A model generated the notes under the pieces. That model made no database searches. It had not been told where the DNA came from and saw nothing but the letters and a program-made list of their open reading frames with translations. A program made the translations under genes and the position numbers. Below, in pieces: positions 29,897 to 47,700 of a DNA stretch of 64,000 nt (position 1 is its first letter; every line of letters begins with the position of its first letter). The DNA comes from Chitinophagales bacterium (GTDB lineage: Bacteria > Bacteroidota > Bacteroidia > Chitinophagales > Chitinophagaceae): contig JBBQYS010000002.1 of the NCBI GenBank assembly GCA_038208485.1, positions 13,323 to 77,322 on the forward strand, read 5' to 3'.

Positions 29897-30114
29897 AAGC
29901 TGGTTAAGGTTTACAGACGACAATATACAACTATTTATCAATGTACAACCGTTTACAAACGGATATATACAACTATAAACGAATAAGATACGAGTACCGC
30001 TTTTCGGCAGGGCCATCTTTGCATTGTCAATCGGTTGAAACGGCTGATGACTGAAATAAAGAAATCTTAACCGGCGAAATTCTTAAAACACGAATCAGCC
30101 ACAAAACGAAAATT

Positions 30115-30459
30115 ATGTACGCATTAAAAAACAAAGTTCAATTGATTGGTAACCTGGGCAGCGCACCAGAAGTAAGGACAACAGAAAATGGAAAAAAACT
30201 TGTTAGGTTTTCTGTAGCCACAAATGAAGTGTACAAAAACGCCTCAGGTGAAAAAGTAAAAGAGACCCAATGGCATAATATCATTGCCTGGGGTTCACTG
30301 GCAGACATTGCAGAAAAATACCTGACCAAGGGAAGTGAGATAGCCCTCGAAGGAAAATTGATGAACAGAAACTATACAGACAAGGAAGGGAACAAAAAAT
30401 ACATTACCGAGATACAAGCCAGTGAGTTATTGATGCTGGGTGCAAAATCTGTAGCCTGA
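30115..30459 (+). CDS. ssb: single-stranded DNA-binding protein, short form without acidic C-terminal tip (copy 1)
   Basis: OB-fold pattern NKVQLIGNLG..PEVR....G...VRFSVAT....WHNIIAWG..AE...KYLTKGS.IALEGKL..R.Y.DKEG. Ends ...LMLGAKSVA with no DDDIPF-type tail. Confidence 0.9.
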   Translation: MYALKNKVQLIGNLGSAPEVRTTENGKKLVRFSVATNEVYKNASGEKVKETQWHNIIAWGSLADIAEKYLTKGSEIALEGKLMNRNYTDKEGNKKYITEIQASELLMLGAKSVA

Positions 30460-30467
30460 TGAAGTCT

Positions 30468-30502
30468 CCGGAAATTGGAGGAGATATACTTTGCAATTTC
30501 CG
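30468..30502 (+). terminator. hairpin after ssb copy 1 (weak or partial terminator)
   Basis: CCGGAAATTG - 15 nt - CAATTTCCGG; no clean T-run. Confidence 0.4.
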
Positions 30503-30604
30503 GAATTCTACTAATTAAAAAAAAGCCGTTGCTTAAAAAACCACCTTTAAAAATATATTAATCGGCGAAATTCTTAAACACGAATCAGCCACAAAACGAA
30601 AATC

Positions 30605-30949
30605 ATGTACGCATTAAAAAACAAAGTTCAATTGATTGGTAACCTGGGCAGCGCACCAGAAGTAAGGACAACAGAAAATGGAAAAAAGCTGGTGAGGTTT
30701 TCTGTAGCCACAAATGAAGTGTACAAAAACGCCTCAGGCGAAAAAGTAAAAGAAACGCAATGGCACAATATCATTGCCTGGGGTTCACTGGCTGACATTG
30801 CAGAAAAATACCTGACTAAGGGAAGTGAGATAGCTCTTGAAGGAAAATTGATGAACAGAAACTATACAGACAAGGAAGGGAACAAAAAATACATAACCGA
30901 GATACAAGCAAGCGAGTTATTGATGCTTGGTGCAAAATCTGTAGCCTGA
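30605..30949 (+). CDS. ssb: single-stranded DNA-binding protein (copy 2, identical protein)
   Basis: The 114-aa product is identical to copy 1. The DNA differs at 15 third-codon positions. Confidence 0.9.
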   Translation: MYALKNKVQLIGNLGSAPEVRTTENGKKLVRFSVATNEVYKNASGEKVKETQWHNIIAWGSLADIAEKYLTKGSEIALEGKLMNRNYTDKEGNKKYITEIQASELLMLGAKSVA

Positions 30950-33585: not shown

Positions 33586-33613
33586 ACATATTATATTATT
33601 ATATAGTATGTTT
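33584..33613. terminator. AT-rich hairpin shared by convergent helicase and mnmG genes
   Basis: AAACATATTATAT-TATT-ATATAGTATGTTT. The arms overlap both stop codons. Confidence 0.5.
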
Positions 33614-35477
33614 ATCTTCCCATATACACCATTAAAATCTGTACATCGCTTGGATTAACACCCGAAATTCTGCTTGCCTGGCCCAAGGTTCTGGGTTGGA
33701 TACGGTCAAACTTCTGCCTGGCTTCATTACTGAGTGAAGAAAGCTTTTGGTAATTGAAATCCTTGGGAATTATAAGTTCTTCCAATGATTTCATCTTTTC
33801 TACCAGGCTTTTTTCTTTTTCTATGTATGAATTGTATTTTAATTGAATCTCTGCCTGTTCAATGGCTTGTTTAGAAAATCCTCTAAGTTCCTTTAGAGAA
33901 GGGAGGTTTACAACCATGTCCGGAATAGTTATTCCGGGACGAAGTAGAAGCTGAGCGGCCTTTTGCTTTTCAATTAGCGGTGCTGAATCTAAATTGCTCA
34001 GCCAATCATTTGCTTCTGCTAAACCAATAGACGTGTTTGTAAGTATAACTTTGATCTTTTCAACCTCCTCCAGCTTTATTCTGAGTTTGCTCATGCGCTC
34101 TTGGGAAGCTAATCCAAGGCGATATCCTTTTTCGGTTAAACGGATATCAGCGTTATCCTGTCTGAGTAGAGTTCTATATTCTGCCCTGCTTGTAAACATG
34201 CGATACGGCTCATCTGTTCCTTTATTAATCAGGTCATCTATAAGAACCCCAATGTATGCTTCGCTTCTGCTTAAAATAAACGGATCTTCATTATTTATTT
34301 TTAAATGGGCGTTTATTCCTGCCATTAGTCCCTGGCAGGCAGCTTCTTCATATCCTGTAGTTCCATTGATCTGACCAGCAAAGAACAGGTTCTGTATTTT
34401 CTTTGTCTCTAATGTAGCCGTCAATTGAGTAGGGGGAAAGAAATCGTATTCAATTGCATATCCCGGTCGAAACAGTTTACAATTTTCAAAACCTGGGACC
34501 AACCTCAATGCCTTAATCTGAGTCTCTTCAGAAAGACTGGTCGAAAATCCGTTTACATATATCTCTACAGTGTTAAAACCCTCTGGCTCTACAAACAATT
34601 GGTGTCTCTCTCTATCTGCAAACCTGCTAATCTTATCTTCTATACTTGGACAATATCTTGGCCCCGAGCCCTTAATTCTTCCCTGGTACATTGGACTTTG
34701 TTCAAATCCTGTTCTTAAAAGTTCATGTACTGCAGAATTAGTATAAGTAATCCAGCAACTCTTTTGAGCGGCTGGCTTTATCTTTTCTACATCAAGAAAG
34801 CTAAATCCGACTATCTCTTCATCTCCATCCTGAGCTTCCATTTTACTGTAGTCAAGACTTCTTCCATCTAACCTTGGAGGTGTACCTGTTTTCAACCTTG
34901 CGCTTTCAAATCCTAATTCTACCAATTGCTCAGTAATTCCCGTAGCTGCTTTTTCTGCCACCCTTCCTCCTCCAAAACTCTTTTCTCCTATATGTATTAC
35001 ACCATTAAGGAAAGTTCCATTGGTCAAAACGACTGATTTTGAATGAATCACATTTCCCAATCCAGTAATCACCCCTTTAACTTTCCCATCTTCAATTACA
35101 AGACTGCTTACCATATCCTGGTAGAAATCTACATTTTCTGTTTGTTCAAGCATTTCTCTCCAGGTAATAGCAAATAGCATTCTATCACTTTGTGCCCTGG
35201 GACTCCACATTGCTGGCCCCTTACTTCTATTCAGCATTCTAAACTGCACCATAGACTTATCCGTTACTATTCCACTATATCCACCTATAGCATCTATTTC
35301 TCTTACTATTTGCCCTTTTGCTATGCCTCCCATGGCTGGATTGCAGCTCATTTGCGCAATTGTTTGCATATTCATGGTGATCAATAAGACCTTACTTCCC
35401 ATATTGGCAGCAGAAGCAGCAGCTTCACAACCTGCATGGCCTGCTCCCACTACAATTACATCATACTCTTTAAACAT
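33612..35477 (-). CDS. mnmG: tRNA uridine 5-carboxymethylaminomethyl modification enzyme MnmG (GidA)
   Basis: MFKEYDVIVVGAGHAGCEAA FAD motif and full-length GidA layout. ATG 35477 is preferred over the GTG at 35495. Confidence 0.95.
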   Translation of the reverse strand: MFKEYDVIVVGAGHAGCEAAASAANMGSKVLLITMNMQTIAQMSCNPAMGGIAKGQIVREIDAIGGYSGIVTDKSMVQFRMLNRSKGPAMWSPRAQSDRMLFAITWREMLEQTENVDFYQDMVSSLVIEDGKVKGVITGLGNVIHSKSVVLTNGTFLNGVIHIGEKSFGGGRVAEKAATGITEQLVELGFESARLKTGTPPRLDGRSLDYSKMEAQDGDEEIVGFSFLDVEKIKPAAQKSCWITYTNSAVHELLRTGFEQSPMYQGRIKGSGPRYCPSIEDKISRFADRERHQLFVEPEGFNTVEIYVNGFSTSLSEETQIKALRLVPGFENCKLFRPGYAIEYDFFPPTQLTATLETKKIQNLFFAGQINGTTGYEEAACQGLMAGINAHLKINNEDPFILSRSEAYIGVLIDDLINKGTDEPYRMFTSRAEYRTLLRQDNADIRLTEKGYRLGLASQERMSKLRIKLEEVEKIKVILTNTSIGLAEANDWLSNLDSAPLIEKQKAAQLLLRPGITIPDMVVNLPSLKELRGFSKQAIEQAEIQLKYNSYIEKEKSLVEKMKSLEELIIPKDFNYQKLSSLSNEARQKFDRIQPRTLGQASRISGVNPSDVQILMVYMGR

Positions 35478-35498
35478 AGATGTAAAAATACACACTAA

Positions 35499-35514
35499 TG
35501 TTCCACGTGAAACA
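35499..35514. other. parS: parS site (ParB/Spo0J binding), exact canonical 16-mer
   Basis: TGTTCCACGTGAAACA read directly, 22 nt upstream of the mnmG ATG. Confidence 0.8.
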
Positions 35515-35543
35515 TGAGACCCAAATTAGGAGAAAGTGATTGC

Positions 35544-35559
35544 TATTCCACGTGGAACA
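35544..35559. other. parS: parS-like site (2 deviations from consensus)
   Basis: TATTCCACGTGGAACA (minus strand TGTTCCACGTGGAATA). Confidence 0.6.
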
Positions 35560-35767
35560 TTAAGGTGCTGATATTGATTCTGGAGTAAAGGTGGTTTTAT
35601 GATTGGTTTTATGATTGAAGTTGATAGTAATTGTCTCCTTCAAGGTTAAAAAACAAAATGTCAAATTGGAAAAATTTATTGGAATGGGTTCAACGACTAA
35701 AGATGAATGGCAATCTGTTACTAAAACGTTAGTGTTTCAAATTGAATAGGGAAGCAATCTCTAGTGT

Positions 35768-35783
35768 TGTTCCACGTGGAACA
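35768..35783. other. parS: parS-like site, perfect 16-bp palindrome
   Basis: TGTTCCACGTGGAACA, directly abutting the ybeY stop codon (35784-35786). Confidence 0.7.
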
Positions 35784-36206
35784 TTATTCAGGAAAGTATT
35801 GAGCTAAATAAAAATCTTCTTTTGAACGCATTAATTCAATTTCTTTTGAAGCTTTATCGCCATAGCCGCATAGGTGTAAAACACCATGAAATATTACCCG
35901 ATGAAGTTCTTGGTCAAAAGAAGTTTTATAATGGGCACTATTGGATCGTACAACATCCGTACAAATAAGGATATCACCATCAATAATACTATCATTATCA
36001 CTAAGGTCAAAAGTAATAATGTCAGTCAGGTAGTTGTGAGCTAAATACTGTTTATTCGCATAAAGGATTTCATCAGAAGAACAAAACAAAAAATTCAAAT
36101 CACCAAGAACGTATTTCTCAGTGATGATCATTTCTTTTAGAAAAGATTTTAGTTTATTTCTATTTGATAACTCAAGGGAGGAAATCCCAGAAAAACTTAT
36201 GGCCAT
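35784..36206 (-). CDS. ybeY: rRNA maturation endoribonuclease YbeY
   Basis: Zinc motif HGVLHLCGYGD. The ATG at 36206 gives a typical ~140-aa protein; the track ORF extends to 36257. Confidence 0.85.
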   Translation of the reverse strand: MAISFSGISSLELSNRNKLKSFLKEMIITEKYVLGDLNFLFCSSDEILYANKQYLAHNYLTDIITFDLSDNDSIIDGDILICTDVVRSNSAHYKTSFDQELHRVIFHGVLHLCGYGDKASKEIELMRSKEDFYLAQYFPE

Positions 36207-36277
36207 TTGTTTCTGATTTCGGAATACAAATGTGACAGATTCTTTTAATTTTACCAATACTAATTAAGCAATGGAGT

Positions 36278-36502
36278 ATGTATAAGAAGTTATCAGAAAT
36301 TGAAATTGGTAAAAAGGTAATCATTCGTTCGTTTTTAAATGATGATATTTTTTTGAAATTAATGGAAATGGGCTGTGTACCTGGCGAAGAGATCTTTATA
36401 GAGAAGATTGCACCATTTAAAGACCCTATTTCTATAGTTGTTTCAGGATATAAATTAAGTCTCAGATTAGATGAGGCCGAGCATATTTTAGTAGAAGAAT
36501 AA
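36278..36502 (+). CDS. feoA: FeoA-domain protein
   Basis: 74-aa SH3-like FeoA pattern (IGKKVIIRSF...LMEMGCVPGEEIFIEKIAPFKDPISIVVSGYKLSLRLDEA). No feoB follows. Confidence 0.7.
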   Translation: MYKKLSEIEIGKKVIIRSFLNDDIFLKLMEMGCVPGEEIFIEKIAPFKDPISIVVSGYKLSLRLDEAEHILVEE

Positions 36503-36527
36503 TATATTAGAATTATATATAATATAT

Positions 36528-37100
36528 ATGAAGATTGGTTTGTATTTTGGCTCCTTTAATCCTGTGCATAATGGACACCTGATCATTGCTCAACATGTGC
36601 TTAATTTTTCAGGTGCTGATAAAGTATGGATGATGGTAACACCCCAAAATCCATTAAAAAATAGTAATTCTTTATTAAATGAAAATGACCGGTACCACCT
36701 GGTACAACTGGCTTTAAAAGATCATCCAAATATTATAGCCAACAACCAGGAATTTACACTACCTCGTCCATCTTATACCATAGATACGCTTACTTACCTT
36801 TCCCAGAAATATCCGCAACATGAATTCTCAGTCACAATGGGAAGTGATAGTTTTAGCAATATTCACAGGTGGAAAAACTATGAACAGATATTGAAAAATT
36901 ATTCAATTATTATCTACCAGAGACCGGGTTTTGAAGTAAATGAAAATAATAATAGAATAGAAATACTACAAGCCCCATTATTAGACATAAGCAGTACATT
37001 CATTAGAGAGTTGATCCTACAGCAAAAAAATATACAATTCCTGGTACCCTCATCAGTGAAGGAATATATTGATGAAAATAATTATTACAAGATAAAATAA
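36528..37100 (+). CDS. nadD: nicotinate-nucleotide adenylyltransferase
   Basis: GSFNPVHNGHL (HxGH) motif and ISSTFIRE; 190 aa. Confidence 0.9.
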   Translation: MKIGLYFGSFNPVHNGHLIIAQHVLNFSGADKVWMMVTPQNPLKNSNSLLNENDRYHLVQLALKDHPNIIANNQEFTLPRPSYTIDTLTYLSQKYPQHEFSVTMGSDSFSNIHRWKNYEQILKNYSIIIYQRPGFEVNENNNRIEILQAPLLDISSTFIRELILQQKNIQFLVPSSVKEYIDENNYYKIK

Positions 37101-37102
37101 GT

Positions 37103-38353
37103 TCAAATTATCCAGCCAAGGATCAGGCAAAAAAGAACAATAACCGGGGCGGGTATTCTTGTATAGTTCAAAGTAAGAAAAGTCAAAGCAATTACACAAA
37201 GACTAATGATCATGACCAGACTAAACTGATTATGAGGTATGGTTTTTAGCAGGAAAAAAAATGCTGCCCACATTAGCCCTACAACAACTGCATTTATCCC
37301 TTCCAGCGCACGATAAACAACAACATATTTTTTTAAATATTGCCAGACTGGAAAGAAGAATAATACCAGTAATGCACTGGGCAAAAAAAGCGCAATAGTA
37401 CCGATAACACAACCGAGGAACTGCATCACCTTTCCTTCATCTTTTAGAGCCATTCCACCAATAAAGGTACTAACCGAGAAAACAGGTCCAGGTATAGCCC
37501 TTACCATACCAAAACCGGTTAATAATTGTCCTCTATCTATTTTAATAGCATTAGGATTACTTACTTGTTGCACCTGTAAAGAGGGCCTTTCAACATATTG
37601 ATCTAACATTAATGGAAGAAGAACATCTCCACCACCAAAAACGATACTGCCAAAGCGATAAAAATTCTCAAATAAATTGTAGGCTTTTCTATGTTGCCAT
37701 TCCTGTTTCCTGGCTGTTTCACTCAGGATACCAGCGATAACAAAAACTATAACAAACCACCAGATGTTTCTCCATTTTACAGGTTTCCGGTTTTTCTTCT
37801 CATAGTCTGGTATACGTTTCTTACTGAAATTTGTGGCTATACTTCCGACTACAATCAGGATGGGGAAAACCCAGGGCGTACGGAAAAAAATAAAGCTTAC
37901 AATCATAGATACAAACATGATGATGTAAGTAATAGGACTGTTGACCGATACCCTAAAATATTTTACAGCGGCATACAGTAAAAATCCGATGGCCATTGGT
38001 TCTATAAATTTGAATAACCCGGAAGTAAGTTTTGTATCAGTGAAGGAGGTAAGCAAAAAAGAAAAAGCACCCATTAAAATAGCAGCTGGTAAAATCCAAA
38101 TGATCAGGGTCATTGTAGCAAGAATTACACCTCCACGTTTATACCCAATGAGTGTAAGTGTTTGTGTACTGGAAGCTCCGGGAAGTAATTGGCAAAACGA
38201 ATTGTATTCCACAAGTTCTTCTTCTGTGACATCCCTTCGTTTATTTACAAAGGTTTTCATCATCATACCAAGATGCCCCTGTGGTCCGCCAAAAGCCGTG
38301 ACACTGTACAAAAGAACAGCTTTGAGAAAAGGTATGTGGCGTAGTAATACCAA
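37103..38353 (-). CDS. chrA: chromate transporter (CHR family, fused two-domain)
   Basis: Duplicated CHR motifs [11 protein letters not shown] and [11 protein letters not shown]; ~10 TM helices. Confidence 0.85.
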
Positions 38354-38436
38354 AGAATGATTTACGCACTAAATTATACATTTATCTGCAATAAGATAAT
38401 GGGAATGGAGCTGTGGAAAATAAAAAGGATAACTGG

Positions 38437-39378
38437 TTATTTTTTTAACCCAATCTCTCTCAATCTTTCATCAAGGTATTCACCCGCAGTCGCATCCTCA
38501 TAAACTTTTGGATGAGAATCATCAATTGTTGAAGGAAGACATTCCAGGCTCATACTGCTTTGTGGATGAAGAAAGAATGGAATCGAAAAACGGCTGGTAT
38601 GCCAGAATTCTCTTTTTGGATTTACCACACGGTGGGTTGTACTGCGAAGTTTATTGTTGGTAAGGCGTTGCAGCATGTCACCAACGTTTACCACAATCTG
38701 TTCTGGTAAAGAGGTTACAGCAACCCATTCTCCTTGTTTAGTTTGAATTTCAAGACCGTCGGCAGAAGCACCAATGAGCAATGTGATCAGGTTGATATCT
38801 TCATGCTGTTCTGCACGTATAGCGCTCTTTGGCTCTTCCGTTATTGGCGGGTAGTGTATGGCCCTTAAAATAGAATTTCCATTGTGCACATAGCTGTCAA
38901 AATAATGTTCATCGAGGCCCAGGTAAATGGCAATAGCTTGCAAGATAGCAGTACCACTTTTTTCAAAATTTCGGTAAGCAGTTTCAAAAGTTTGATTAAA
39001 ACCATTTACTTCATCAACAGAAACATTTGGGGGATATTCTTCTTCTTTGTAATTGTCTCTTGGTATTTGTCCGTATTGATAAAATTCTTTCAGATCTGGT
39101 GCTTCGCTGCCCTTGGCATGTTCGGTACCAAAGCTTGTATATCCCCGCTGCCCTGCCAGTTCCGGGTCTTCATATTTTTTCTTTTGGGAAAGAGGAAGAG
39201 AAAAAAATTGTTGTACTTCTTCGTACAAAGATTCAATCAGCTCGTCGCTTAGTCCATGATTTTTTACACCAACAAAACCCACTGTTTCATACGCCTGTCC
39301 TATGGACTGCACAAAATTATTTTTGCGCTCAGCATCGCCGCTAAGAAAATCTGCCAGGTCTACGGTTGGTATTGCCAT
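38437..39378 (-). CDS. 2-oxoglutarate/Fe(II)-dependent oxygenase (isopenicillin N synthase family)
   Basis: N-terminal IPTVDLADF; facial-triad contexts HEDINLITLL and STTHRV. Confidence 0.8.
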   Translation of the reverse strand: MAIPTVDLADFLSGDAERKNNFVQSIGQAYETVGFVGVKNHGLSDELIESLYEEVQQFFSLPLSQKKKYEDPELAGQRGYTSFGTEHAKGSEAPDLKEFYQYGQIPRDNYKEEEYPPNVSVDEVNGFNQTFETAYRNFEKSGTAILQAIAIYLGLDEHYFDSYVHNGNSILRAIHYPPITEEPKSAIRAEQHEDINLITLLIGASADGLEIQTKQGEWVAVTSLPEQIVVNVGDMLQRLTNNKLRSTTHRVVNPKREFWHTSRFSIPFFLHPQSSMSLECLPSTIDDSHPKVYEDATAGEYLDERLREIGLKK

Positions 39379-39417: not shown

Positions 39418-40428
39418 TTAAAGTCCATATTCCGCACTGATTTCTAACATTCTTTGAATTGGTTTTTTTGCCGCAATGATCAGTTCATCACTCATGGTGA
39501 TTTCAGGAGTTTCGTATTTCATACAGAGATAAAGTTTCTCCAAAGTATTCAGTTTCATGTACGGGCAATCATTGCAGGCACAGGTATTTGTTGGAGGTGC
39601 AGGAATAAAAGATTTCTGTGGACTGGTCTTCTGCATCTGGTGAAGAATACCGCTTTCAGTAGCTACAATGAACTGATGCGAAGGATCATTTTCTGTAAAC
39701 TTGAGCAGGGCAGTAGTGCTGCCGATAAAATCTGCCACCCGCAAAACAGCTTCTTCACATTCCGGGTGTGCAATCATTTTAGCTTGCGGATGACGGATCT
39801 TTAACTTGGTTATTTTTTCGAGGCTGAATATCTCATGCACCATACAGGCGCCATTCCACAACACCATGTTGCGGCCTGTTTGTTTGTTGATGTAAGCACC
39901 AAGATTTTTATCAGGAGCAAAAATTATTTTTTGATCAGGAGGTAAGGTCTCCACAATTTTTTGTGCATTGCTGCTGGTGCAAATGATATCACTCAATGCT
40001 TTCATTCCTGCGCTGCAGTTGATGTAGGTAATGACGATATTATCCGGATGCTTGTCCTTGAAAGCTTTGAACAAAGGTGGAGGTGCACTATCACTGAGTG
40101 AACAACCGGCATTGAGATCAGGAAGCAAAACTTTTTTGTGTGGGTTTAATATCTTGGCAGTTTCTGCCATGAAATGAACACCGGCAAAAACAATGATATC
40201 CGCATCTGTGCTTTCAGCTTTTTGCGAAAGACCCAAACTATCCCCAATGTAATCTGCCACGTCCTGGATATCCGGCTCCTGGTAATAGTGGGCCAGTACA
40301 ATTGCATTCTTTTCTTTTTTGAGTTTTTCTATTTCGGCAAACAGATCGAGTTGCGGATCGAGCTCAATATCCAGGAACCCTTTTTCCGAAACTATTTTTT
40401 CCATTTGTGCTTTGTGAATATCTACCAT
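39418..40428 (-). CDS. nadA: quinolinate synthase
   Basis: ILAHYYQ motif, three-repeat NadA architecture with conserved Cys; 336 aa. Confidence 0.92.
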
Positions 40429-40534
40429 AATATGTATTAATACTTATTATTTATATAATCCCTTATTATTACTAGGGCTGTTAATATGTGGGAAAACAAT
40501 TTTCTGCCACTATTGTAAAATTAAATTATTTAGT

Positions 40535-40564
40535 TTATCCACGGTTATTCACCGGAAATCCACA
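40535..40564 (+). promoter_or_regulatory. three tandem DnaA-box-like 9-mers in helical phase
   Basis: TTATCCACG (40535), TTATTCACC (40545) and AAATCCACA (40556), compared with consensus TTATCCACA. Start spacing is 10 and 11 bp. Confidence 0.45.
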
Positions 40565-40703
40565 AAAATTTTCCGGTGAAGCCGATTATTTTTTAAAATA
40601 AATTTGGCTTGTTTAAAACCTGAACTGGACTGAATCTAATTAAATATAAACTCATTTTTTGTTTTGGCTCTTTGAAGCTATTCAAAAAAAACTTTTCCTT
40701 TTC

Positions 40704-40712
40704 TGTGGATTA
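40704..40712 (-). promoter_or_regulatory. DnaA-box-like 9-mer (TAATCCACA)
   Basis: Plus strand TGTGGATTA; one mismatch to consensus. Confidence 0.4.
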
Positions 40713-40825
40713 ATTATACCGTGGAAAGAAATTTCACCGCTCCCGACATTATGGCTGTGGAGAGGAGGACGTAAAAATCGTAGTTAATTACCACTAATAA
40801 TTTTAGCAGGCAGATACTGCTGCAT

Positions 40826-40834
40826 TTATCCTCA
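40826..40834 (+). promoter_or_regulatory. DnaA-box-like 9-mer (TTATCCTCA)
   Basis: One mismatch to TTATCCACA. Confidence 0.35.
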
Positions 40835-41025
40835 AACTACTGACGACAAAAAAAATAGAAAAAGGGCTTGTTAACAGAAAAATGGTGGATGTACACATGG
40901 GGTGTGAATAGCGAAAAAAAATGATTTTTTTGTCTAAAAACAGACTATCTCAAATAGGAAAGATTTTCCATTTATGCTACCAGGCTGATTTTACATGCTT
41001 GTAAAAATATTTAAGACCTTGCATT

Positions 41026-41643
41026 ATGCAGAAGACAACAATAAACCATTGGGAGAGCGTGTATAAAACAAAGGGACCGCTAGAAGTAAGTTGGACACAG
41101 GAAAAATCAGCAACTTCACTAGTCTTCATCCATTCTTTTGGCTTGCCTAAGACTGCAAAAATAATAGACATTGGCGGTGGCCACAGCAAACTTGTGGATT
41201 ATTTGCTTGATGAAGGATTTTAAAATATAACTGTACTTGATATTTCAGCACAGGTCCTCACTAAAGCAAAATTTCGTTTGGGTGAAAGAGCGCAAAAAAT
41301 CACCTGGGTTGTGAGCGATATTACAGAGTTTCACCCTGACATTACATTTGACATCTGGCACGACAGGGCAACATTTCATTTTCTTACTACTGACGACCAG
41401 GTCACAAAATATATGGAGATTGCAAGAAAAGCTATTTCTGGTTTTTTGACCATCGGAACTTTTTCGGATAACCGACCAGAAAGCTGTAGCGGCTTACAGA
41501 TAAAACAATACAATGAGGAAAAATTGACATCAGAACTTCAAAATGGTTTAGACAAAATACGCTGCATAACTGAGGACCATAAAACACCATTCAACACGAC
41601 ACAAAATTTTTTGTTTTGCAGTTTCAAAAGGCAGCAGGATTGA
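41026..41643 (+). pseudogene. class I SAM-dependent methyltransferase interrupted by one in-frame TAA
   Basis: ORFs 41026..41223 and 41278..41643 share a frame. Read-through gives IIDIGGGHSKLVDYLLDEGF*NITVLDISAQVL..., i.e. motif I and post-I separated by a stop at 41221-41223. Confidence 0.75.
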
Positions 41644-41758: not shown

Positions 41759-44458
41759 TTAAAATTTCTGGAATTTAGATTGAATCGTAATACCATTTCC
41801 TGAGATAGTCAGGTAATATAATCCACTATTAAGGGTGCTGGTATTTTGCAGGATATTATTTGTTCCTTTTACTAAAAAAGCACCGGTACGGGAAACCAAT
41901 CTTCCGGCATTGTCAAATATACTGATGGTAACATTTCCCGTCATCGGAGAAATTACAGTTCCTTTAAGTTTATCAGATACAGGGTTTGGTGCTATAGAGA
42001 TCAAACCTTTGGTAGTTGGTAGATTAATGGTTACAATAATTGAATATTTGTATGAACCATCTGTGTCCGTAAGTTTAAGCCTGTAATAAACTGTTAGAGC
42101 ATTTTGATTTTGGGCATCCCTATCAGTATAGGCAAAACTTCCACTAGCTGATGAAGTAGCATTTACACTCCCTATCTGGTAAAAATTAGTTCCATCTACG
42201 CTACGCTCTATACCATAAGCTAAGAGGTTTACCTGGTTTTCGGATTTCCATTGCAAAAGACCTGATAGATCGCTGTTTAACTTACCCGTGAAGCTGATCA
42301 ACTGTACAGGTAAAACTGTATTGCGGGCAGCAAAGTAAAAAGAAGAAAAGCTTGTAACAGAGGTTTGGAGAACATAGCCGGAAGTTCCTTGTGTGATATT
42401 TGCCAGGTTGGTAGTTGTAGCAGAAAGTTCGGTCGTATTTTGTTGAATGGTTGATCCGCATGCATCTCCATTTTTATGAATTCTTAGAAAAGTAATATTG
42501 GAAACCCCGCCTGCATTCGTGTAGTTAGTAAATTCTGTACCCGTTAAATACAATCTTATTTTCACAGGTGTTCCAAAACTATTGTTTGCAGGAGTAATGG
42601 TAATATTTCTGTCGAGATATTTTATTCCAGAATTGGTTCTTACAGCTCCTTCATTTAGATAGTAGCTGGTAGAAACTACCCCAAGGTTTTGCCCCATGGC
42701 ATTTATTTCAGCTACAATATTTCCATCAAGACCAGTTATAGGTACCCATAAATTATTATTAGTTGCATCAATTGTAATTTGGTTTGCCGTGTTACAGGTT
42801 CCCGTACTTCCGGTACTAACTGCTATGTTTTTTGGAATTTTACTAAGACCCGATGCATCGCTATTGTATCCTAAAAAACTATACTTAATCACACAGCCTT
42901 TGCAGGCAGTAACTACGTTTGCACTCCCACTTGGGCCAGAAGTTGCTCCGTTATCCATTATTACATAAATGTCTTTACCGTTAGGCCCAAATGCCAAATC
43001 ACGATACCGATTCGGACTTTGAAAATAGGTAATTGTATCACCTGTATTTCCGGTAGTGCTTCCAATACCACTTGGAAGCGTTTTCGTTCCGGTAGCATCG
43101 AGAGGAAGCCGTATCATCCGGCCCCACTTCAATCCTGCAGCTACAAGAGATCGTTTCCAACCTGGAATCATATTATTGCTATATAATTCTAATCCTGACC
43201 AGCCTTCACTTTCCCAACCAGAGTTGCTCGGATTATTTTGCCAGGTAGATGCAATCAATGCAGGTGTTGATGCATAAGCAGAAAAAATCGGGTTGAGATA
43301 ATCACCGTTACCAGAAGCATTAATAGCAGTGACGTTAGCCGCCTCATTTCCTACAGGGTCTAAAGAAGAATTTCCACAATATGGGCTACCCGAAGAATAT
43401 GCAGGAGGAGGAGTATAACCCGTAATGTTACAATTTGTATATGGGGCTCCTGCAGTTATGCTATTGCTGAATCCCCTGGCAGCGTTTCCGTTGTAATTTC
43501 CATCGGAAGAATAACCTATTACACGTGGGTGTCCGTAATTTCTTCTTCTCTCTATTATATTGATTTCATCATCGCTAAATGGACCATGTGCTGCTCCATA
43601 TAAAGTATTTGTACTCGTATCATAAGCAAACCCCTGGTTATTTCTCATCCCAATGTTCCATACAGCATTTGTAGGACTGCCATATGGATTGTCATTTGGT
43701 ATCCATTTATCATAATAGCTTACATCAGCATCCGGCTCAAGGTTATATCTTAATATTTTTCCTTCGCGGGAGTTGGGATCCTGGGCATTAATTGGCCTGT
43801 ACCTGTTACCAAACTGGCCGCTTCCCATATCGCCGCTTCCCATAAATAAAAAAGGAGTGCCTTCTACAGGAGCAATAATGAGCCTTTGTGAATTGTGATC
43901 ACTGCTTCCTGGTAGGTTCCAGTCCAGTACAGCTGGAGTTTCCAGCCTGCCATTTGTAAAATTATAAGTGAATCTTACAAGTTTGTTTCGATATATTACA
44001 CCCGCCGGGCTAGTTCCTGACATGTATTTCCATATATAGGTAACGTACACAAAATCTTTACTCATCCCTTTACCAAAATCCGGGTGGATAGCCATACCTG
44101 CAAAACCACCTTGCGGCCAGCTTGTCCAGGATGTCATATTCTGAGCATTAAGGGTATCGTCTCCATTCCCTGTATTGCCTAACCAGGTGCTCCCAGTAGA
44201 TATATCCAATACTATTCTCTTACCTCCATTTCCCGGATGTATCTTATATAATTTGTACCCACGTGATTCGGTTACCCACAAACTATCATCGGGACCATAG
44301 GTGATTTCCCATGGATACTGTAAAATATTGTCACCAGAGAGTATTTGCTGAGAAAAAACTTCATTCATACGTGAACTTAATATTTGGCTCTTCAAATGGG
44401 AGGAAATACAAAAAATTACTGCTAAAAGCAAAATCTTTTTAAAGTGAAATTTGCACAT
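41759..44458 (-). CDS. T9SS-secreted glucose/sorbosone-dehydrogenase-like beta-propeller protein
   Basis: Signal peptide; GFAGMAIHPDF, GMRNNQGFAYD and DDEINIIERRRNYGHP motifs; Fn3-like module VLPVQLISFTGK...; T9SS C-terminal domain ISIAPNPVSDKL...GLYYLTISGNGITIQSKFQKF. Confidence 0.8.
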   Translation of the reverse strand: MCKFHFKKILLLAVIFCISSHLKSQILSSRMNEVFSQQILSGDNILQYPWEITYGPDDSLWVTESRGYKLYKIHPGNGGKRIVLDISTGSTWLGNTGNGDDTLNAQNMTSWTSWPQGGFAGMAIHPDFGKGMSKDFVYVTYIWKYMSGTSPAGVIYRNKLVRFTYNFTNGRLETPAVLDWNLPGSSDHNSQRLIIAPVEGTPFLFMGSGDMGSGQFGNRYRPINAQDPNSREGKILRYNLEPDADVSYYDKWIPNDNPYGSPTNAVWNIGMRNNQGFAYDTSTNTLYGAAHGPFSDDEINIIERRRNYGHPRVIGYSSDGNYNGNAARGFSNSITAGAPYTNCNITGYTPPPAYSSGSPYCGNSSLDPVGNEAANVTAINASGNGDYLNPIFSAYASTPALIASTWQNNPSNSGWESEGWSGLELYSNNMIPGWKRSLVAAGLKWGRMIRLPLDATGTKTLPSGIGSTTGNTGDTITYFQSPNRYRDLAFGPNGKDIYVIMDNGATSGPSGSANVVTACKGCVIKYSFLGYNSDASGLSKIPKNIAVSTGSTGTCNTANQITIDATNNNLWVPITGLDGNIVAEINAMGQNLGVVSTSYYLNEGAVRTNSGIKYLDRNITITPANNSFGTPVKIRLYLTGTEFTNYTNAGGVSNITFLRIHKNGDACGSTIQQNTTELSATTTNLANITQGTSGYVLQTSVTSFSSFYFAARNTVLPVQLISFTGKLNSDLSGLLQWKSENQVNLLAYGIERSVDGTNFYQIGSVNATSSASGSFAYTDRDAQNQNALTVYYRLKLTDTDGSYKYSIIVTINLPTTKGLISIAPNPVSDKLKGTVISPMTGNVTISIFDNAGRLVSRTGAFLVKGTNNILQNTSTLNSGLYYLTISGNGITIQSKFQKF

Positions 44459-44722: not shown

Positions 44723-47700
44723 GTGAATCCAAAATTACCCACCCTGAAAAAGGTATCTATTGCCTTATTTTTATTTTTTTGCTTATCTCCTCAGTCCTGG
44801 GCACAGCCAGCAAACGATCTTTGCTCAGCTGCTATTCTATTGACTAGTTCTGGGGGTTGTACTAGTACAAGTGGAACTTTACTTAATGCGACAAAATCCT
44901 CACCGAATATAAGTAGTTGTGGCCCGAATTCTTCAGCTGATGTGTGGTATAGGTTTGTAGCAAATTCAGAAACACCTACGATAAAATTGAATGGAGTAGG
45001 TTCAAACTTCAGTTCTGCATCACCTAGATTGCAATTATTTACAGATTGCGGTGGAACTGCTCTACTTTGTAGCACAAGCCCTTTAAACCCTTCAAATCTA
45101 ATCATAGGAGACACCTATTATATAAGAGTTACTACAAATTCGAATACCGGGTCGCCAATAACAAGTGGGAACTGGAATTTCACTATTTGTGTCAGTGATT
45201 TGAGTTTAGATTATTCTAAGTCTTATGTAAATATTACAGATGGTACAGTAGGCGGAACCATCAACCCGGGTGATATATTAGAGATCCGATCTACTTTTGT
45301 AGTTCGCGGTGGAGATAGAACTCTTCAGGTGACAAACATCAGGTATTTTGATACCCTTAAAGCGAATGCTGGATTACGATACACAAATCAAATTTCCACC
45401 CGTACCAACGAAGGAAAAGTTGTTAATACTTTTACTGATGCAACCGGCGATGATGCCGGCTGGGCAATTAAACCTGCTGTAGGTGATACTACTATTCAAA
45501 TCAACATAGGACCTGGCGCTACTTCAAATTCACTTACAGGGGGGGGGACTTTGGAGTCTGATTCAAGACCTTCTGTATTTGGAGGAACTTGTATCATTAT
45601 GGCTACATACAGGGTAACTGTAACGGGTGAATATGAAAAGAAAATAAATTTTGGTGGAGGGGCATTTCGATATAATATTAACGGGCAAGATTTCACGATA
45701 ACATTTCCAAGAGACAGCCTAATTGTATATCCTACCCTGGACGCCTGTTCGGATGCAGTATCTCCTGGAAACCTTATAGGATCTGCAAATAACGGAACGT
45801 TTGGTACACTCCCAATGGGAAGCATGCCCACTGCAGCTCTACAAAATGCCGGTCCCGCTTCTTTCAACACAAGTTATATTTATTCGAATTTTAGTACGGG
45901 TGCACCCCAGGATTACTATTACGGCATTACAAATAATACCAGCGGCCTTAACACAATTGATCAAACATTTGCTAAGGGTTCGGGTACAGGAAATCCCCGT
46001 GTGTTTTCCCATTGGGATATTACAGGAGATCATACCGGCGCCACAGACTTGAGTAAAGGGAATCCACCTTGTGACGTAACAAAAGTGGTAAGCGCAACAA
46101 ACCCTTGTGGGTACCTTTTAGCCATCAACTCGGCTTATAGAACAGATAAAGTATTTGAATACACAGCCTCAGGAGTATGTACAGATACATATTATGAGGT
46201 TTCTGCATGGTTTAAAAATATTTGCTATCGTTGTGGTTGCGATTCAGTTGGAAGGGGTTCAGGTGGGGGAAGTTATATTCCCACTGCTCCGGGAGACTCT
46301 TCGGGTGTAAGGCCAAATGTGACCATGCAGATAGATGGCATAAACTATTATAGTACAGGTGAATTGATTTACCAGGGCTTGGGTGGAACTCAAAGTGGTT
46401 CGGACACATTGAACAAATGGATTCGCCGTTCATTTGTTTTTAAAACTAGTCCTACACAAACCAGCTTTACAATAACATTTAAAAACAACGCACCCGGTGG
46501 AGGAGGAAATGACTGGGCTATCGATGATATTGGCCTGAGAACCTGTTATCCCGATATGATTTATGCCCCAACAAACCCCATAGTATTTATAGGCAACTCC
46601 CTTACTATTACCGATACCGTAAGATCTTATTTTAATAACTACACATATTATAAATGGCAAAAAGCGCCTGGTGCAACCCCTACCGTTTTTTCTGATATTC
46701 CAGGAGCTTCCGGTAATGCCATCAATGTGTATAAACCACTTATCAATCAATATGAGTTTGTGATAAGCTATACCATTCCTGGTACAGCAACACAACCTGC
46801 TAACTCGGGAGACGTTTACAGGATGGTAGTAGCCAGCAATATTGCCAACCTAAACAGTGGCTGTAACTTTGTACCTACTATATCATTTACTTTGTTGCCC
46901 GCAGATGCACCATGCGAATTCACTGCTGTAAATTATGCTGTTGCTCCAAAAAACGGGGTAATCAACTGGAATAAATTGAACTGGAGCCTGGGGCATGTGC
47001 CTACCTGTTGCGAAAGTGCTTATATCACTTACCCGGGAGATAATGCAGTAACCGATTCAATCGGAGTTTATATTACAAATGATATTTGCCTTATCAACCT
47101 CACGTTTGTAAATGTGTCAACAAAAGGGAACCAGGTTTTCAGAACTGTTTTGCATCCGGGATACAATATGTTGATGAGGGGAGATGTACGCATGGGCGCA
47201 ACTGCCCCCTTTGCTACAGATAGTACTTTATTTATAGCAAAAGGCGCTAATACAATAACAGTAAATGGTAATACTGTAATTGGTTACAATGGTGATCCCG
47301 GTACGAGTATCATAGGTAGCGCACCAGGCACTAATACATATATAAAGTATATATTAAAAGGAGACAGCCTTACTTTTAATACAAAGGCATTCGTCAATCA
47401 TAAGTTTGCTTCTTTTACCATGGATCCTACTTCCGGTTCTGCTGTTTTGGTAAACAATGTAGATGCAGTAACCTATCCCTTTGCTGTTAGTTTTGATTCT
47501 CTTTATATTGGAAAGACCACGCCTAAAACGGTGACTTTGGCCGGCACGGGTAGTAACTCGTTCCTAAATGATAATAATGGAGCGCTGGTAGTCTCTACAG
47601 GGTCTACATTTATAATGCCCGCAAATTATACATTGAATGCAAAAGATTTTGTGACAGCGGGTGTTTTTAAAAGCCGTGTAGTTCTACAACCCAATTCAAC

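What the first reader, a model, noticed from the sequence alone, without database searches (positions are those of the whole stretch)
35499..35783. Three parS (ParB/Spo0J-binding) 16-mers packed into the 306-bp ybeY-mnmG spacer
35499-35514 is TGTTCCACGTGAAACA, identical to the canonical Bacillus subtilis parS and matching the widespread consensus TGTTNCACGTGAAACA. 35768-35783 is TGTTCCACGTGGAACA, a perfect palindrome with one change, and it abuts the ybeY stop. 35544-35559 is TATTCCACGTGGAACA, with two changes. I found no other 16-mer of this type in the 64 kb. mnmG (gidA) is a classical origin-proximal gene. No parA or parB lies in the window. Three sites within 285 bp would make a strong ParB nucleation centre and would mark this window as origin-proximal.
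Basis: partly seen in the sequence, partly recalled or inferred. Interest (0 to 1): 0.7.

Follow-up and report, generated by a model that had tools for sequence, protein, structure and literature searches.

The report
Chromosomal parS cluster upstream of mnmG
Three textbook ParB-binding (parS) sites lie between ybeY and mnmG in a Chitinophagaceae (Bacteroidota) chromosome, at a position shared by many relatives and about 4.6 kb from a likely replication origin, so this is an ordinary centromere-like element.

Summary
TGTTCCACGTGAAACA (35499-35514), TATTCCACGTGGAACA (35544-35559) and TGTTCCACGTGGAACA (35768-35783) are the only matches to the parS consensus in the 64 kb. They fill the 306-bp ybeY-mnmG spacer.

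The window comes from a Chitinophagaceae bacterium close to Ferruginibacter. In 48 of 80 Bacteroidota mnmG loci, at least one parS lies within 150 bp upstream of the mnmG start. That is about 170 times the density in the flanks. The site often abuts the ybeY stop codon, and sites often come in pairs 33-50 bp apart.

The window has no parA, parB or dnaA. The non-coding stretch 40429-41025, next to nadA, has the joint-highest DnaA-box score in the window. It also has a conserved layout of DnaA boxes, a GC cluster, TAG/TAA trios and an AT-rich tract. It is a candidate oriC 4.6 kb from the parS cluster. Most related loci that carry nadA also have DnaA boxes upstream of it. Cytophagales relatives have a DnaA-box cluster with a clear GC-skew switch about 4.5 kb from their parS sites. 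GC skew in the window itself is inconclusive.

Verdict: a real, canonical, origin-proximal ParB loading centre and a new member of a known kind. ParB binding and genome-wide rarity are untested.

The parts
35499..35514 (.). parS site 1, TGTTCCACGTGAAACA. It lies 21 nt upstream of the mnmG ATG and covers the spacer/-33 region of the putative mnmG promoter.
   Evidence: Exact match to the consensus. Same 16-mer as the B. subtilis / H. pylori parS used in experiments. A parS lies 8-100 nt from the mnmG ATG in 48 of 80 related loci.
35544..35559 (.). parS site 2, TATTCCACGTGGAACA. It has one mismatch to the degenerate consensus (G2 to A) and starts 45 bp from site 1.
   Evidence: Paired sites 33-50 bp apart are the common layout in relatives.
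35768..35783 (.). parS site 3, TGTTCCACGTGGAACA, a perfect palindrome that directly abuts the ybeY stop codon.
   Evidence: Same 16-mer as the P. aeruginosa / P. putida parS. A parS abutting the ybeY stop recurs in relatives such as L004, L031, L041, L045 and L049.
33612..35477 (-). mnmG (gidA), the gene whose 5' end carries the parS cluster.
   Evidence: TIGR00136, E 9e-256. 63-79% identical to MnmG of 80 Bacteroidota loci.
35784..36257 (-). ybeY, the upstream neighbour, on the same strand as mnmG.
   Evidence: TIGR00043, E 3e-25. ybeY-mnmG synteny holds in most of the 80 loci.
35483..35490 (-). TATTTTTA, an imperfect Bacteroidota-type -7 promoter box (consensus TAnnTTTG). It ends 5 nt before the mnmG ATG, which implies a leaderless or near-leaderless mRNA.
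   Evidence: 37 of 80 loci have TAnnTTTG starting within 30 nt of the mnmG ATG. The promoter consensus is from my own knowledge of Bacteroides promoters. Function is inferred.
40429..41025 (.). Candidate oriC: a 597-bp non-coding region next to the nadA start, 4.6 kb from parS site 3.
   Evidence: Joint-highest DnaA-box score of any 500-bp stretch in the window, 11 against mean 2.4 and sd 1.9. The stretch from 38201 also scores 11. Boxes at 40535, 40704 and 40826 have 1 mismatch; 40487, 40545, 40556, 40756 and 40903 have 2. 17 of 21 Chitinophagaceae-like loci have a 1-mismatch box within 400 bp upstream of nadA.
40535..40564 (-). Three closely spaced DnaA-box-like 9-mers. On the minus strand they read TGTGGATTT, GGTGAATAA and CGTGGATAA. 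They align with the conserved TGTGGATnAnTGTGGATAA block of relatives.
   Evidence: Alignment A1 with six Ferruginibacter-like loci.
40429..40495 (-). Unwinding-module-like stretch. On the minus strand it reads TTTCCCACA TATTAACAG (box-like pair, 40478-40495), CCC (40475-40477), TAG TAA TAA TAA (DnaA-trio-like, 40463-40474), then an AT-rich tract up to the nadA ATG.
   Evidence: Conserved in alignment A1. It fits the published basal unwinding system: tandem DnaA boxes within 16 bp of at least 3 trios of consensus 3'-GAT-5' (PMC8287927). Function is inferred.
39418..40428 (-). nadA, the gene flanking the candidate oriC. The nadA-DnaA-box linkage is shared with relatives.
   Evidence: NF006878, E 2e-139.

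Best explanation
The three 16-bp palindromes are chromosomal parS sites, the loading sites for the ParB (Spo0J) CTPase clamp of a Chitinophagaceae chromosome. By analogy with studied systems, a ParB dimer recognises each palindrome through its helix-turn-helix domain. It then binds CTP, closes into a clamp and slides onto flanking DNA. Three loading sites within 285 bp should build a dense ParB-DNA complex covering several kb on each side. That zone would include the candidate replication origin 4.6 kb away, next to nadA. The complex would be the handle by which ParA, and whatever condensin the organism has, separate the newly replicated origin regions. What is shown here: the sequences, their rarity in the window, their shared position in relatives, and the nearby DnaA-box cluster. 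What is inferred: ParB binding, spreading, the segregation role and origin activity.
For: (1) Two exact matches and one 1-off match to TGTTNCACGTGNAACA, with no other match in 64 kb. (2) The 16-mers are identical to parS sites used experimentally in B. subtilis / H. pylori and in Pseudomonas. (3) 48 of 80 Bacteroidota mnmG loci carry at least one parS (up to 1 mismatch) within 150 bp upstream of the mnmG ATG. Density there is 5.7/kb against 0.034/kb elsewhere, and the remaining sites still concentrate within about 3 kb of mnmG. (4) Across 90 sites the 14 fixed positions are nearly invariant and positions 5/12 vary only Y/R, while spacing and distance to the ATG vary. This is a DNA-binding-site pattern. 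(5) A candidate oriC lies at 40429-41025, with a conserved layout of boxes, GC cluster, trios and AT-rich tract. (6) In Cytophagales relatives a DnaA-box cluster of up to 14 boxes sits 4.3-4.9 kb from the mnmG ATG and coincides with a GC3-skew switch of +0.082 +/- 0.012, t = 6.9, which weakens when the breakpoint is shifted 3-6 kb towards mnmG. (7) ParABS homologues and parS clusters at ori have been reported in two other Bacteroidota by Hi-C (PMC10197239). (8) The window holds housekeeping genes (uvrB, alr, frr, rbfA, mnmG, ybeY), so it is chromosomal, not plasmid.
Against: No parB or parA lies in the window or within 10 kb of mnmG in any of the 80 loci. The source genome could not be found, so a cognate ParB is assumed from the phylum, not shown. 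Genome-wide copy number is unknown. Inside the window the GC3-skew term for a breakpoint at 40.7 kb is -0.031 +/- 0.019, which is not significant and has the wrong sign. 61% of coding bases left of it are on the plus strand, which would be head-on to replication. The pooled skew switch for the Chitinophagaceae nadA-type clusters is not significant (+0.014 +/- 0.010). About 40% of the loci, mainly Saprospiraceae by record title, have no parS at mnmG.
Confidence: 0.85

Rival explanations
1. The sites are real ParB targets, but their conserved placement at the mnmG 5' end exists mainly for transcription control. ParB bound at site 1 would occlude the spacer/-33 region of the mnmG promoter and tie mnmG expression to ParB occupancy or the cell cycle.
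For: Site 1 ends 8 nt upstream of a -7-like box that itself ends 5 nt before the ATG. The nearest parS lies 8-100 nt from the mnmG ATG in 48 loci. In P. aeruginosa, ParB bound at intergenic parS3 and parS4 represses the adjacent genes PA0011 and PA0013 (PMC7022226).
Against: The geometry is not conserved. Among loci with both elements, the TAnnTTTG box lies downstream of all parS in 22 and upstream of all parS in 10, and distances vary from 8 to about 100 nt. In B. subtilis, loss of Spo0J does not change expression of genes next to parS (PMC7022226). The window's -7 box is imperfect and its use is unproven.
Confidence: 0.1
2. The palindromes are operators of an unrelated transcription factor that recognises a CACGTG-centred inverted repeat and regulates ybeY or mnmG, and ParB is not involved.
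For: They are intergenic, promoter-proximal and palindromic. No ParB gene could be tied to this genome.
Against: All 14 fixed positions match the parS consensus, not only the core, in the window and in 90 sites from distant relatives. The same 16-mers are proven ParB sites in other phyla. Multiple copies with variable spacing near a DnaA-box cluster is the typical parS pattern.
Confidence: 0.04
3. The elements act at the RNA level. Site 3 would be a terminator hairpin for ybeY, or sites 1 and 2 would pair into a long stem that terminates or processes read-through transcripts.
For: Sites 1 and 2 can form a stem of about 20 bp (-33.3 kcal/mol, z = -6.3) and site 3 a 6-bp hairpin just after the ybeY stop.
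Against: The site 3 hairpin is weak (-8.4 kcal/mol, z = -1.4) and has no U tract. No terminator-like site was found in 35300-36000. The long stem is an automatic result of two copies of one palindrome. Relatives keep the sequence itself and show no compensatory variation, and many have a single site. Rfam finds nothing.
Confidence: 0.02
4. The sites are a chance occurrence or copies of a dispersed repeat (REP or MITE-like).
For: One of 100 shuffles reached 3 hits at up to 2 mismatches.
Against: Two sites are exact, with about 3e-4 expected per window by my estimate. All three lie within 285 bp and there are no other copies in 64 kb. The position is shared across genera.
Confidence: 0.01

Closest known systems
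Chromosomal parS sites of the ParABS system (B. subtilis Spo0J-parS; P. aeruginosa parS1-4 cluster near oriC)
   Same: The same 16-bp palindromes: site 1 is the B. subtilis spo0J parS sequence and site 3 is the Pseudomonas perfect palindrome. They are few, clustered, intergenic and close to a DnaA-box cluster.
   Different: The host phylum is Bacteroidota, which is absent from the table of studied chromosomal ParB systems in the 2020 review (the word Bacteroidetes does not occur in it). parAB is not adjacent: none within the 64 kb or within 10 kb of mnmG in 80 relatives. ParB binding is not demonstrated.
The gidA-gidB-parA-parB origin-region gene cluster of Proteobacteria (for example Pseudomonas gidAB-parAB, with DnaA boxes upstream of gidA) and E. 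coli oriC next to gidA
   Same: mnmG/gidA is linked to the origin region and to partition elements. DnaA-box clusters lie within a few kb of mnmG in relatives (PMC13438810 listed).
   Different: Only the cis site stays at mnmG here, and the par genes are elsewhere. The partner gene is ybeY, not gidB. The ybeY-mnmG spacer has no DnaA boxes. The candidate oriC flanks nadA, 4.6 kb away.
Basal unwinding system (BUS) of bacterial oriC (DnaA-box pair + DnaA-trios + AT-rich region; Pelliciari et al. 2021)
   Same: The nadA-proximal end of 40429-41025 has a box-like pair, a GC cluster, four TAG/TAA trios and an AT-rich tract in the published order. These are conserved in six relatives.
   Different: The trio-proximal boxes are degenerate (2 or more mismatches). 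There is no dnaA or dnaN nearby, no skew switch in the window and no functional test.

Membership tests
Chromosomal parS (ParABS centromere-like site) | 16-bp palindrome matching TGTTNCACGTGAAACA with few mismatches | tested here: met
   Sites have 0, 1 and 0 mismatches to TGTTNCACGTGNAACA. They are identical to published parS 16-mers.
Chromosomal parS (ParABS centromere-like site) | Low copy number, not dispersed | tested here: inconclusive
   Only 3 hits in 64 kb, all within 285 bp. Background in 1.46 Mb of relatives' flanks is 0.034/kb. The whole source genome was not available.
Chromosomal parS (ParABS centromere-like site) | Located in the origin-proximal part of the chromosome | tested here: inconclusive
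   A candidate oriC lies 4.6 kb away by DnaA boxes and a BUS-like layout. Window GC skew and gene orientation do not confirm it. The feature is met in Cytophagales relatives: a DnaA-box cluster with a skew switch, t = 6.9.
Chromosomal parS (ParABS centromere-like site) | Conservation of sites at the orthologous position in related genomes | tested here: met
   48 of 80 mnmG loci have a site within 150 bp upstream of the ATG, about 170-fold enrichment.
Chromosomal parS (ParABS centromere-like site) | Cognate ParB (HTH + CTP-binding N-terminal domain) encoded in the same genome | not testable with these tools
   None in the window and the rest of the genome is unavailable. ParABS homologues are reported for other Bacteroidota (PMC10197239).
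Chromosomal parS (ParABS centromere-like site) | Specific ParB binding and spreading (ChIP-seq, EMSA, CTP-dependent loading) | not testable with these tools
   Needs experiments.
DnaA-dependent oriC (candidate at 40429-41025) | Cluster of DnaA boxes in a non-coding region | tested here: met
   Three 1-mismatch and five 2-mismatch boxes lie in 40487-40911. The DnaA-box score is the joint-highest in the window, 11 against 2.4 +/- 1.9. Boxes at about 3/kb against 0.35/kb background lie upstream of nadA in 21 relatives.
DnaA-dependent oriC (candidate at 40429-41025) | DnaA-trios within 16 bp of a DnaA box, followed by an AT-rich unwinding region | tested here: met
   TTTCCCACA TATTAACAG CCC TAG TAA TAA TAA followed by an AT-rich tract, on the minus strand at 40429-40495. 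Conserved in alignment A1. Criteria from PMC8287927. Judged by eye, not with the published program.
DnaA-dependent oriC (candidate at 40429-41025) | GC-skew sign change and a switch of gene orientation at the site | tested here: not met
   Side term -0.031 +/- 0.019 (not significant). 61% of coding bases on the left would be head-on. Pooled Chitinophagaceae loci give +0.014 +/- 0.010, also not significant. Power in a 64-kb window is low.
Intrinsic terminator (rival for site 3) | GC-rich hairpin followed by a U tract | tested here: not met
   No terminator-like site in 35300-36000. The hairpin is -8.4 kcal/mol, z = -1.4, with no U tract.

The most novel reading that the evidence does not exclude
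The parS-mnmG 5' coupling, kept across Chitinophagales, Cytophagales and some Flavobacteriales even though parAB and dnaA lie elsewhere, is not only a positional relic of an ancestral oriC-gidA-par neighbourhood. Instead, ParB loaded at sites that overlap or sit just upstream of the leaderless mnmG promoter would control mnmG (tRNA U34 modification) as a function of origin replication and segregation status. Conversely, mnmG transcription away from the origin would shape ParB sliding.
Probability: 0.12. Interest if true: 0.5.

Novelty: new member of a known kind. Interest (0 to 1): 0.3.

Why it matters
The finding gives a practical landmark. In many Bacteroidota, where dnaA does not mark the origin, the ybeY-parS-mnmG junction can anchor the origin region in draft genomes and MAGs. 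It can be used together with the nearby DnaA-box cluster, which sits next to nadA in Chitinophagaceae and about 2.5 kb beyond mnmG in Cytophagales. It also identifies the sites to use for ParB ChIP-seq, for fluorescent origin tagging or for plasmid stabilisation in this phylum. The 2020 review I consulted lists no Bacteroidetes entry among studied chromosomal ParB systems. It does not reveal a new mechanism.

Tried and rejected
(1) Finding the source genome. Exact-product look-ups of MnmG, UvrB, SSB and NadA all returned nothing. The genome-wide parS count and the positions of parAB and dnaA could therefore not be obtained. The single genome-contig scan went on MnmG relatives.

(2) oriC inside the ybeY-mnmG spacer, as in E. 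coli gidA-oriC. Rejected, because the spacer has no DnaA box at up to 1 mismatch.

(3) parA, parB or dnaA near mnmG in relatives.

(4) GC-skew confirmation of the candidate oriC in the window. Not significant and of the wrong sign for GC3.

(5) A fixed promoter-parS geometry. Rejected.

(6) Terminator or RNA-structure reading. Weak. Rfam found no family in the window.

(7) Literature. Livny et al. 2007, the survey most likely to list Bacteroidetes parS sites, is not held. One broad search and one paper look-up gave nothing useful. I found no paper describing parS at mnmG in Bacteroidota, but the library is incomplete.

(8) I ran no further search on ParB, because its output carries no taxonomy and could not show that this lineage has ParB.

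Full report
OBSERVATION. They are the only matches in the 64 kb to TGTTNCACGTGNAACA at up to 2 mismatches, against 0.16 expected from shuffles. Allowing 3 mismatches adds only three scattered hits, which is the chance level. mnmG is 33612..35477 on the minus strand and ybeY is 35784..36257 on the minus strand. The spacer is therefore 306 bp, and site 3 touches the ybeY stop codon.

SOURCE ORGANISM. Two large proteins carry type IX secretion sorting tails (41759-44458 and 44723-49984). MnmG is at most 79% identical to any representative genome, and the best hits are Chitinophagaceae, mostly Ferruginibacter. The gene order nadA, 2OG-dioxygenase, chrA, nadD, ybeY, mnmG, helicase, ssb is shared with Ferruginibacter loci L002, L004 and L007. 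The window holds housekeeping genes such as uvrB, alanine racemase, frr and rbfA, so it is chromosomal. The exact genome is not in the protein collection.

COMPARATIVE EVIDENCE.
- I scanned 80 Bacteroidota mnmG loci with up to 10 kb on each side. In 48 of them at least one parS (up to 1 mismatch) lies within 150 bp upstream of the mnmG start codon.
- Density there is 5.7 sites/kb, against 0.034/kb in the other 1.46 Mb. Most remaining sites still lie within about 3 kb of mnmG.
- By record title, the loci with sites include Chitinophaga, Ferruginibacter, Terrimonas, Rufibacter, Emticicia, Aquirufa, Roseivirga and Lunatimonas, plus MAGs labelled Flavobacteriales. Saprospiraceae loci mostly lack sites.
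- ybeY is the upstream neighbour in most loci. A parS often abuts its stop codon, and in the shortest spacers a single parS nearly fills the ybeY-mnmG gap.
- Over 90 sites the motif is T G T T Y C A C G T G R A A C A with almost no other variation. Pair spacing (mostly 24-50 bp) and distance to the ATG (8-100 nt) both vary.
- Invariant sequence with variable geometry is the signature of a protein-binding DNA site. It is not the signature of an RNA stem or of an operator locked to a promoter.
- The same 16-mers are proven ParB sites in Bacillus / Helicobacter and in Pseudomonas.

ORIGIN PROXIMITY. The window has no ParA, ParB, DnaA or DnaN, and the spacer itself has no DnaA boxes.
- The 597-bp non-coding region 40429-41025, directly upstream of nadA, has the joint-highest DnaA-box score in the window: 11 against a mean of 2.4 and sd of 1.9. 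A stretch starting at 38201 ties it, and a stretch around 36.5 kb scores 10, so the whole 36-41 kb region is box-rich.
- An alignment with six Ferruginibacter-like loci shows a conserved tandem TGTGGATnAnTGTGGATAA block. Next to the nadA ATG it shows a box-like pair, a CCC cluster, TAG TAA TAA TAA and an AT-rich tract.
- That order matches the published basal unwinding system of bacterial origins (PMC8287927).
- Of the 21 related loci that carry nadA, 17 have a 1-mismatch DnaA box within 400 bp upstream of nadA. Box density there is about 3/kb, against 0.35/kb background.
- In Cytophagales loci a separate, stronger cluster of up to 14 boxes in 420 bp sits 4.3-4.9 kb from the mnmG ATG. It coincides with a GC3-skew switch of +0.082 +/- 0.012 (t = 6.9). 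The switch vanishes when the breakpoint is shifted 3-6 kb towards mnmG and stays positive but weaker when it is shifted the other way.
- In this phylum, then, the mnmG parS cluster typically lies within 3-9 kb of a DnaA-box cluster.

EVIDENCE AGAINST THE CANDIDATE oriC. Inside the window the GC3-skew term for a breakpoint at 40.7 kb is -0.031 +/- 0.019. Gene orientation left of it is 61% head-on. The pooled Chitinophagaceae skew switch is not significant. I therefore rate the candidate oriC at roughly 0.6, and origin proximity in the broader sense at roughly 0.7.

MECHANISM. This part is inferred from the studied ParABS systems. ParB dimers load at each palindrome, close on CTP and slide outwards. 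Three loading sites in 285 bp should give a dense partition complex spanning mnmG, ybeY, nadD, chrA, nadA and the candidate origin. ParA, and possibly a condensin, would use this complex to separate sister origins. A Hi-C study reports ParABS homologues and ori-linked parS clusters in two gut Bacteroidota, and notes that the origin does not always coincide with dnaA (PMC10197239).

PROMOTER CONTEXT. On the mnmG strand an imperfect Bacteroidota -7 box (TATTTTTA, 35483-35490) ends 5 nt before the ATG. Chitinophagaceae relatives have TAcCTTTG or TAtCTTTG in the same place, which implies a leaderless mRNA. Site 1 ends 8 nt upstream of that box and would overlap the -33 region, so ParB could hinder RNA polymerase. 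A precedent exists in P. aeruginosa (PMC7022226). However, the box lies downstream of all parS in 22 loci and upstream of all parS in 10, so a conserved regulatory design is unlikely. I keep it as a minority reading.

RIVALS. An unrelated transcription factor is unlikely, because all 14 fixed positions follow the parS consensus. The RNA-level reading is weak. The site 3 hairpin is -8.4 kcal/mol (z = -1.4) with no U tract, no terminator-like site was found, and the long stem between sites 1 and 2 is an automatic result of two copies of one palindrome. Chance and dispersed repeats are excluded within the window.

COMPARISON AND NOVELTY. This is a canonical chromosomal parS cluster. It differs from the textbook cases in three ways. 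The phylum does not appear in the 2020 review of chromosomal ParB. The par genes are absent from the neighbourhood. The anchor gene pair is ybeY-mnmG. The link to mnmG recalls the proteobacterial oriC-gidA-gidB-parA-parB region. I could not check whether the 2007 survey by Livny et al. already lists these sites, because that paper is not held. I rate it a new member of a known kind, with interest 0.3. Its value is as an origin-region landmark for Bacteroidota genomes and MAGs, and as a guide for ParB experiments.

Noticed in passing
window 30086-30949: Tandem duplication with a 490-bp period. It carries two copies of a short (114-aa) ssb gene (30115-30459 and 30605-30949). The DNA copies are 96% identical over 300 nt and the proteins give identical family scores. 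Relatives L002, L010, L013, L021 and L034 show one ssb at this position.
   Followed up: partly
window 40429-41025: Candidate oriC next to nadA: DnaA-box cluster, conserved tandem boxes, TAG/TAA trios and an AT-rich tract. GC skew and gene orientation in the window do not confirm it.
   Followed up: yes
L045:14348-14764 (also L036, L047, L049, L051, L066, L069-L078 at +4.3 to +4.9 kb from the mnmG ATG): Dense DnaA-box clusters (14 boxes in 420 bp in L045) in an intergenic gap about 2.5 kb beyond the 3' end of mnmG in Cytophagales-type loci. Pooled GC3 skew switches sign there (t = 6.9). This is a likely oriC that is not next to dnaA.
   Followed up: partly
L005:6795-7352: Ten DnaA-box-like 9-mers (TTATNCACA) spaced regularly every 61-62 bp between nadA and ybeY in Chitinophaga sp. 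Hz27, in addition to the nadA-upstream cluster. This could be a tandem-repeat DnaA-titration-like array or a second origin module.
   Followed up: no
L012, L018, L009, L022, L023 at mnmG +381 (L014 with 1 mismatch; L056 at +372): An exact parS (TGTTTCACGTGGAACA in L012, L018, L009, L022 and L056; TGTTTCACGTGAAACA in L023) sits inside the mnmG coding sequence at the same codon position in several Chitinophagaceae. The window has 7 mismatches at the equivalent place (about 35082-35097).
   Followed up: partly
window 41026-41643: Two adjacent ORFs (41026-41223 and 41278-41643) separated by a stop at 41221. The first contains a DIGGG motif typical of SAM-dependent methyltransferases. Neither ORF has a Pfam hit at E 1e-6. 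This may be a disrupted methyltransferase gene bordering the candidate oriC.
   Followed up: partly
window 35593-35616: A perfect 12-bp tandem repeat, GGTTTTATGATT x2, lies in the roughly 200 bp between parS sites 2 and 3. The closest relatives, with spacers of about 130 bp, lack this extra stretch. Its origin is unknown.
   Followed up: no
window 35478-35490 and the 20 nt before the mnmG ATG in L002-L031: A Bacteroidota -7 promoter box (TAnnTTTG) sits 4-5 nt before the mnmG start codon in many Chitinophagaceae, which implies a leaderless mnmG mRNA. In Cytophagales a similar box lies inside the 3' end of ybeY, upstream of the parS sites.
   Followed up: partly
window 36278-36502: A stand-alone FeoA-domain ORF (74 aa) lies between ybeY and nadD, with no feoB next to it.
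   Followed up: no
window 36451-37050 and 38201-38700: Two further stretches score nearly as high for DnaA-box-like 9-mers (10-11) as the candidate oriC. As a result, 7 of the 31 boxes with up to 1 mismatch in the window fall in 36.5-41.2 kb.
   Followed up: no
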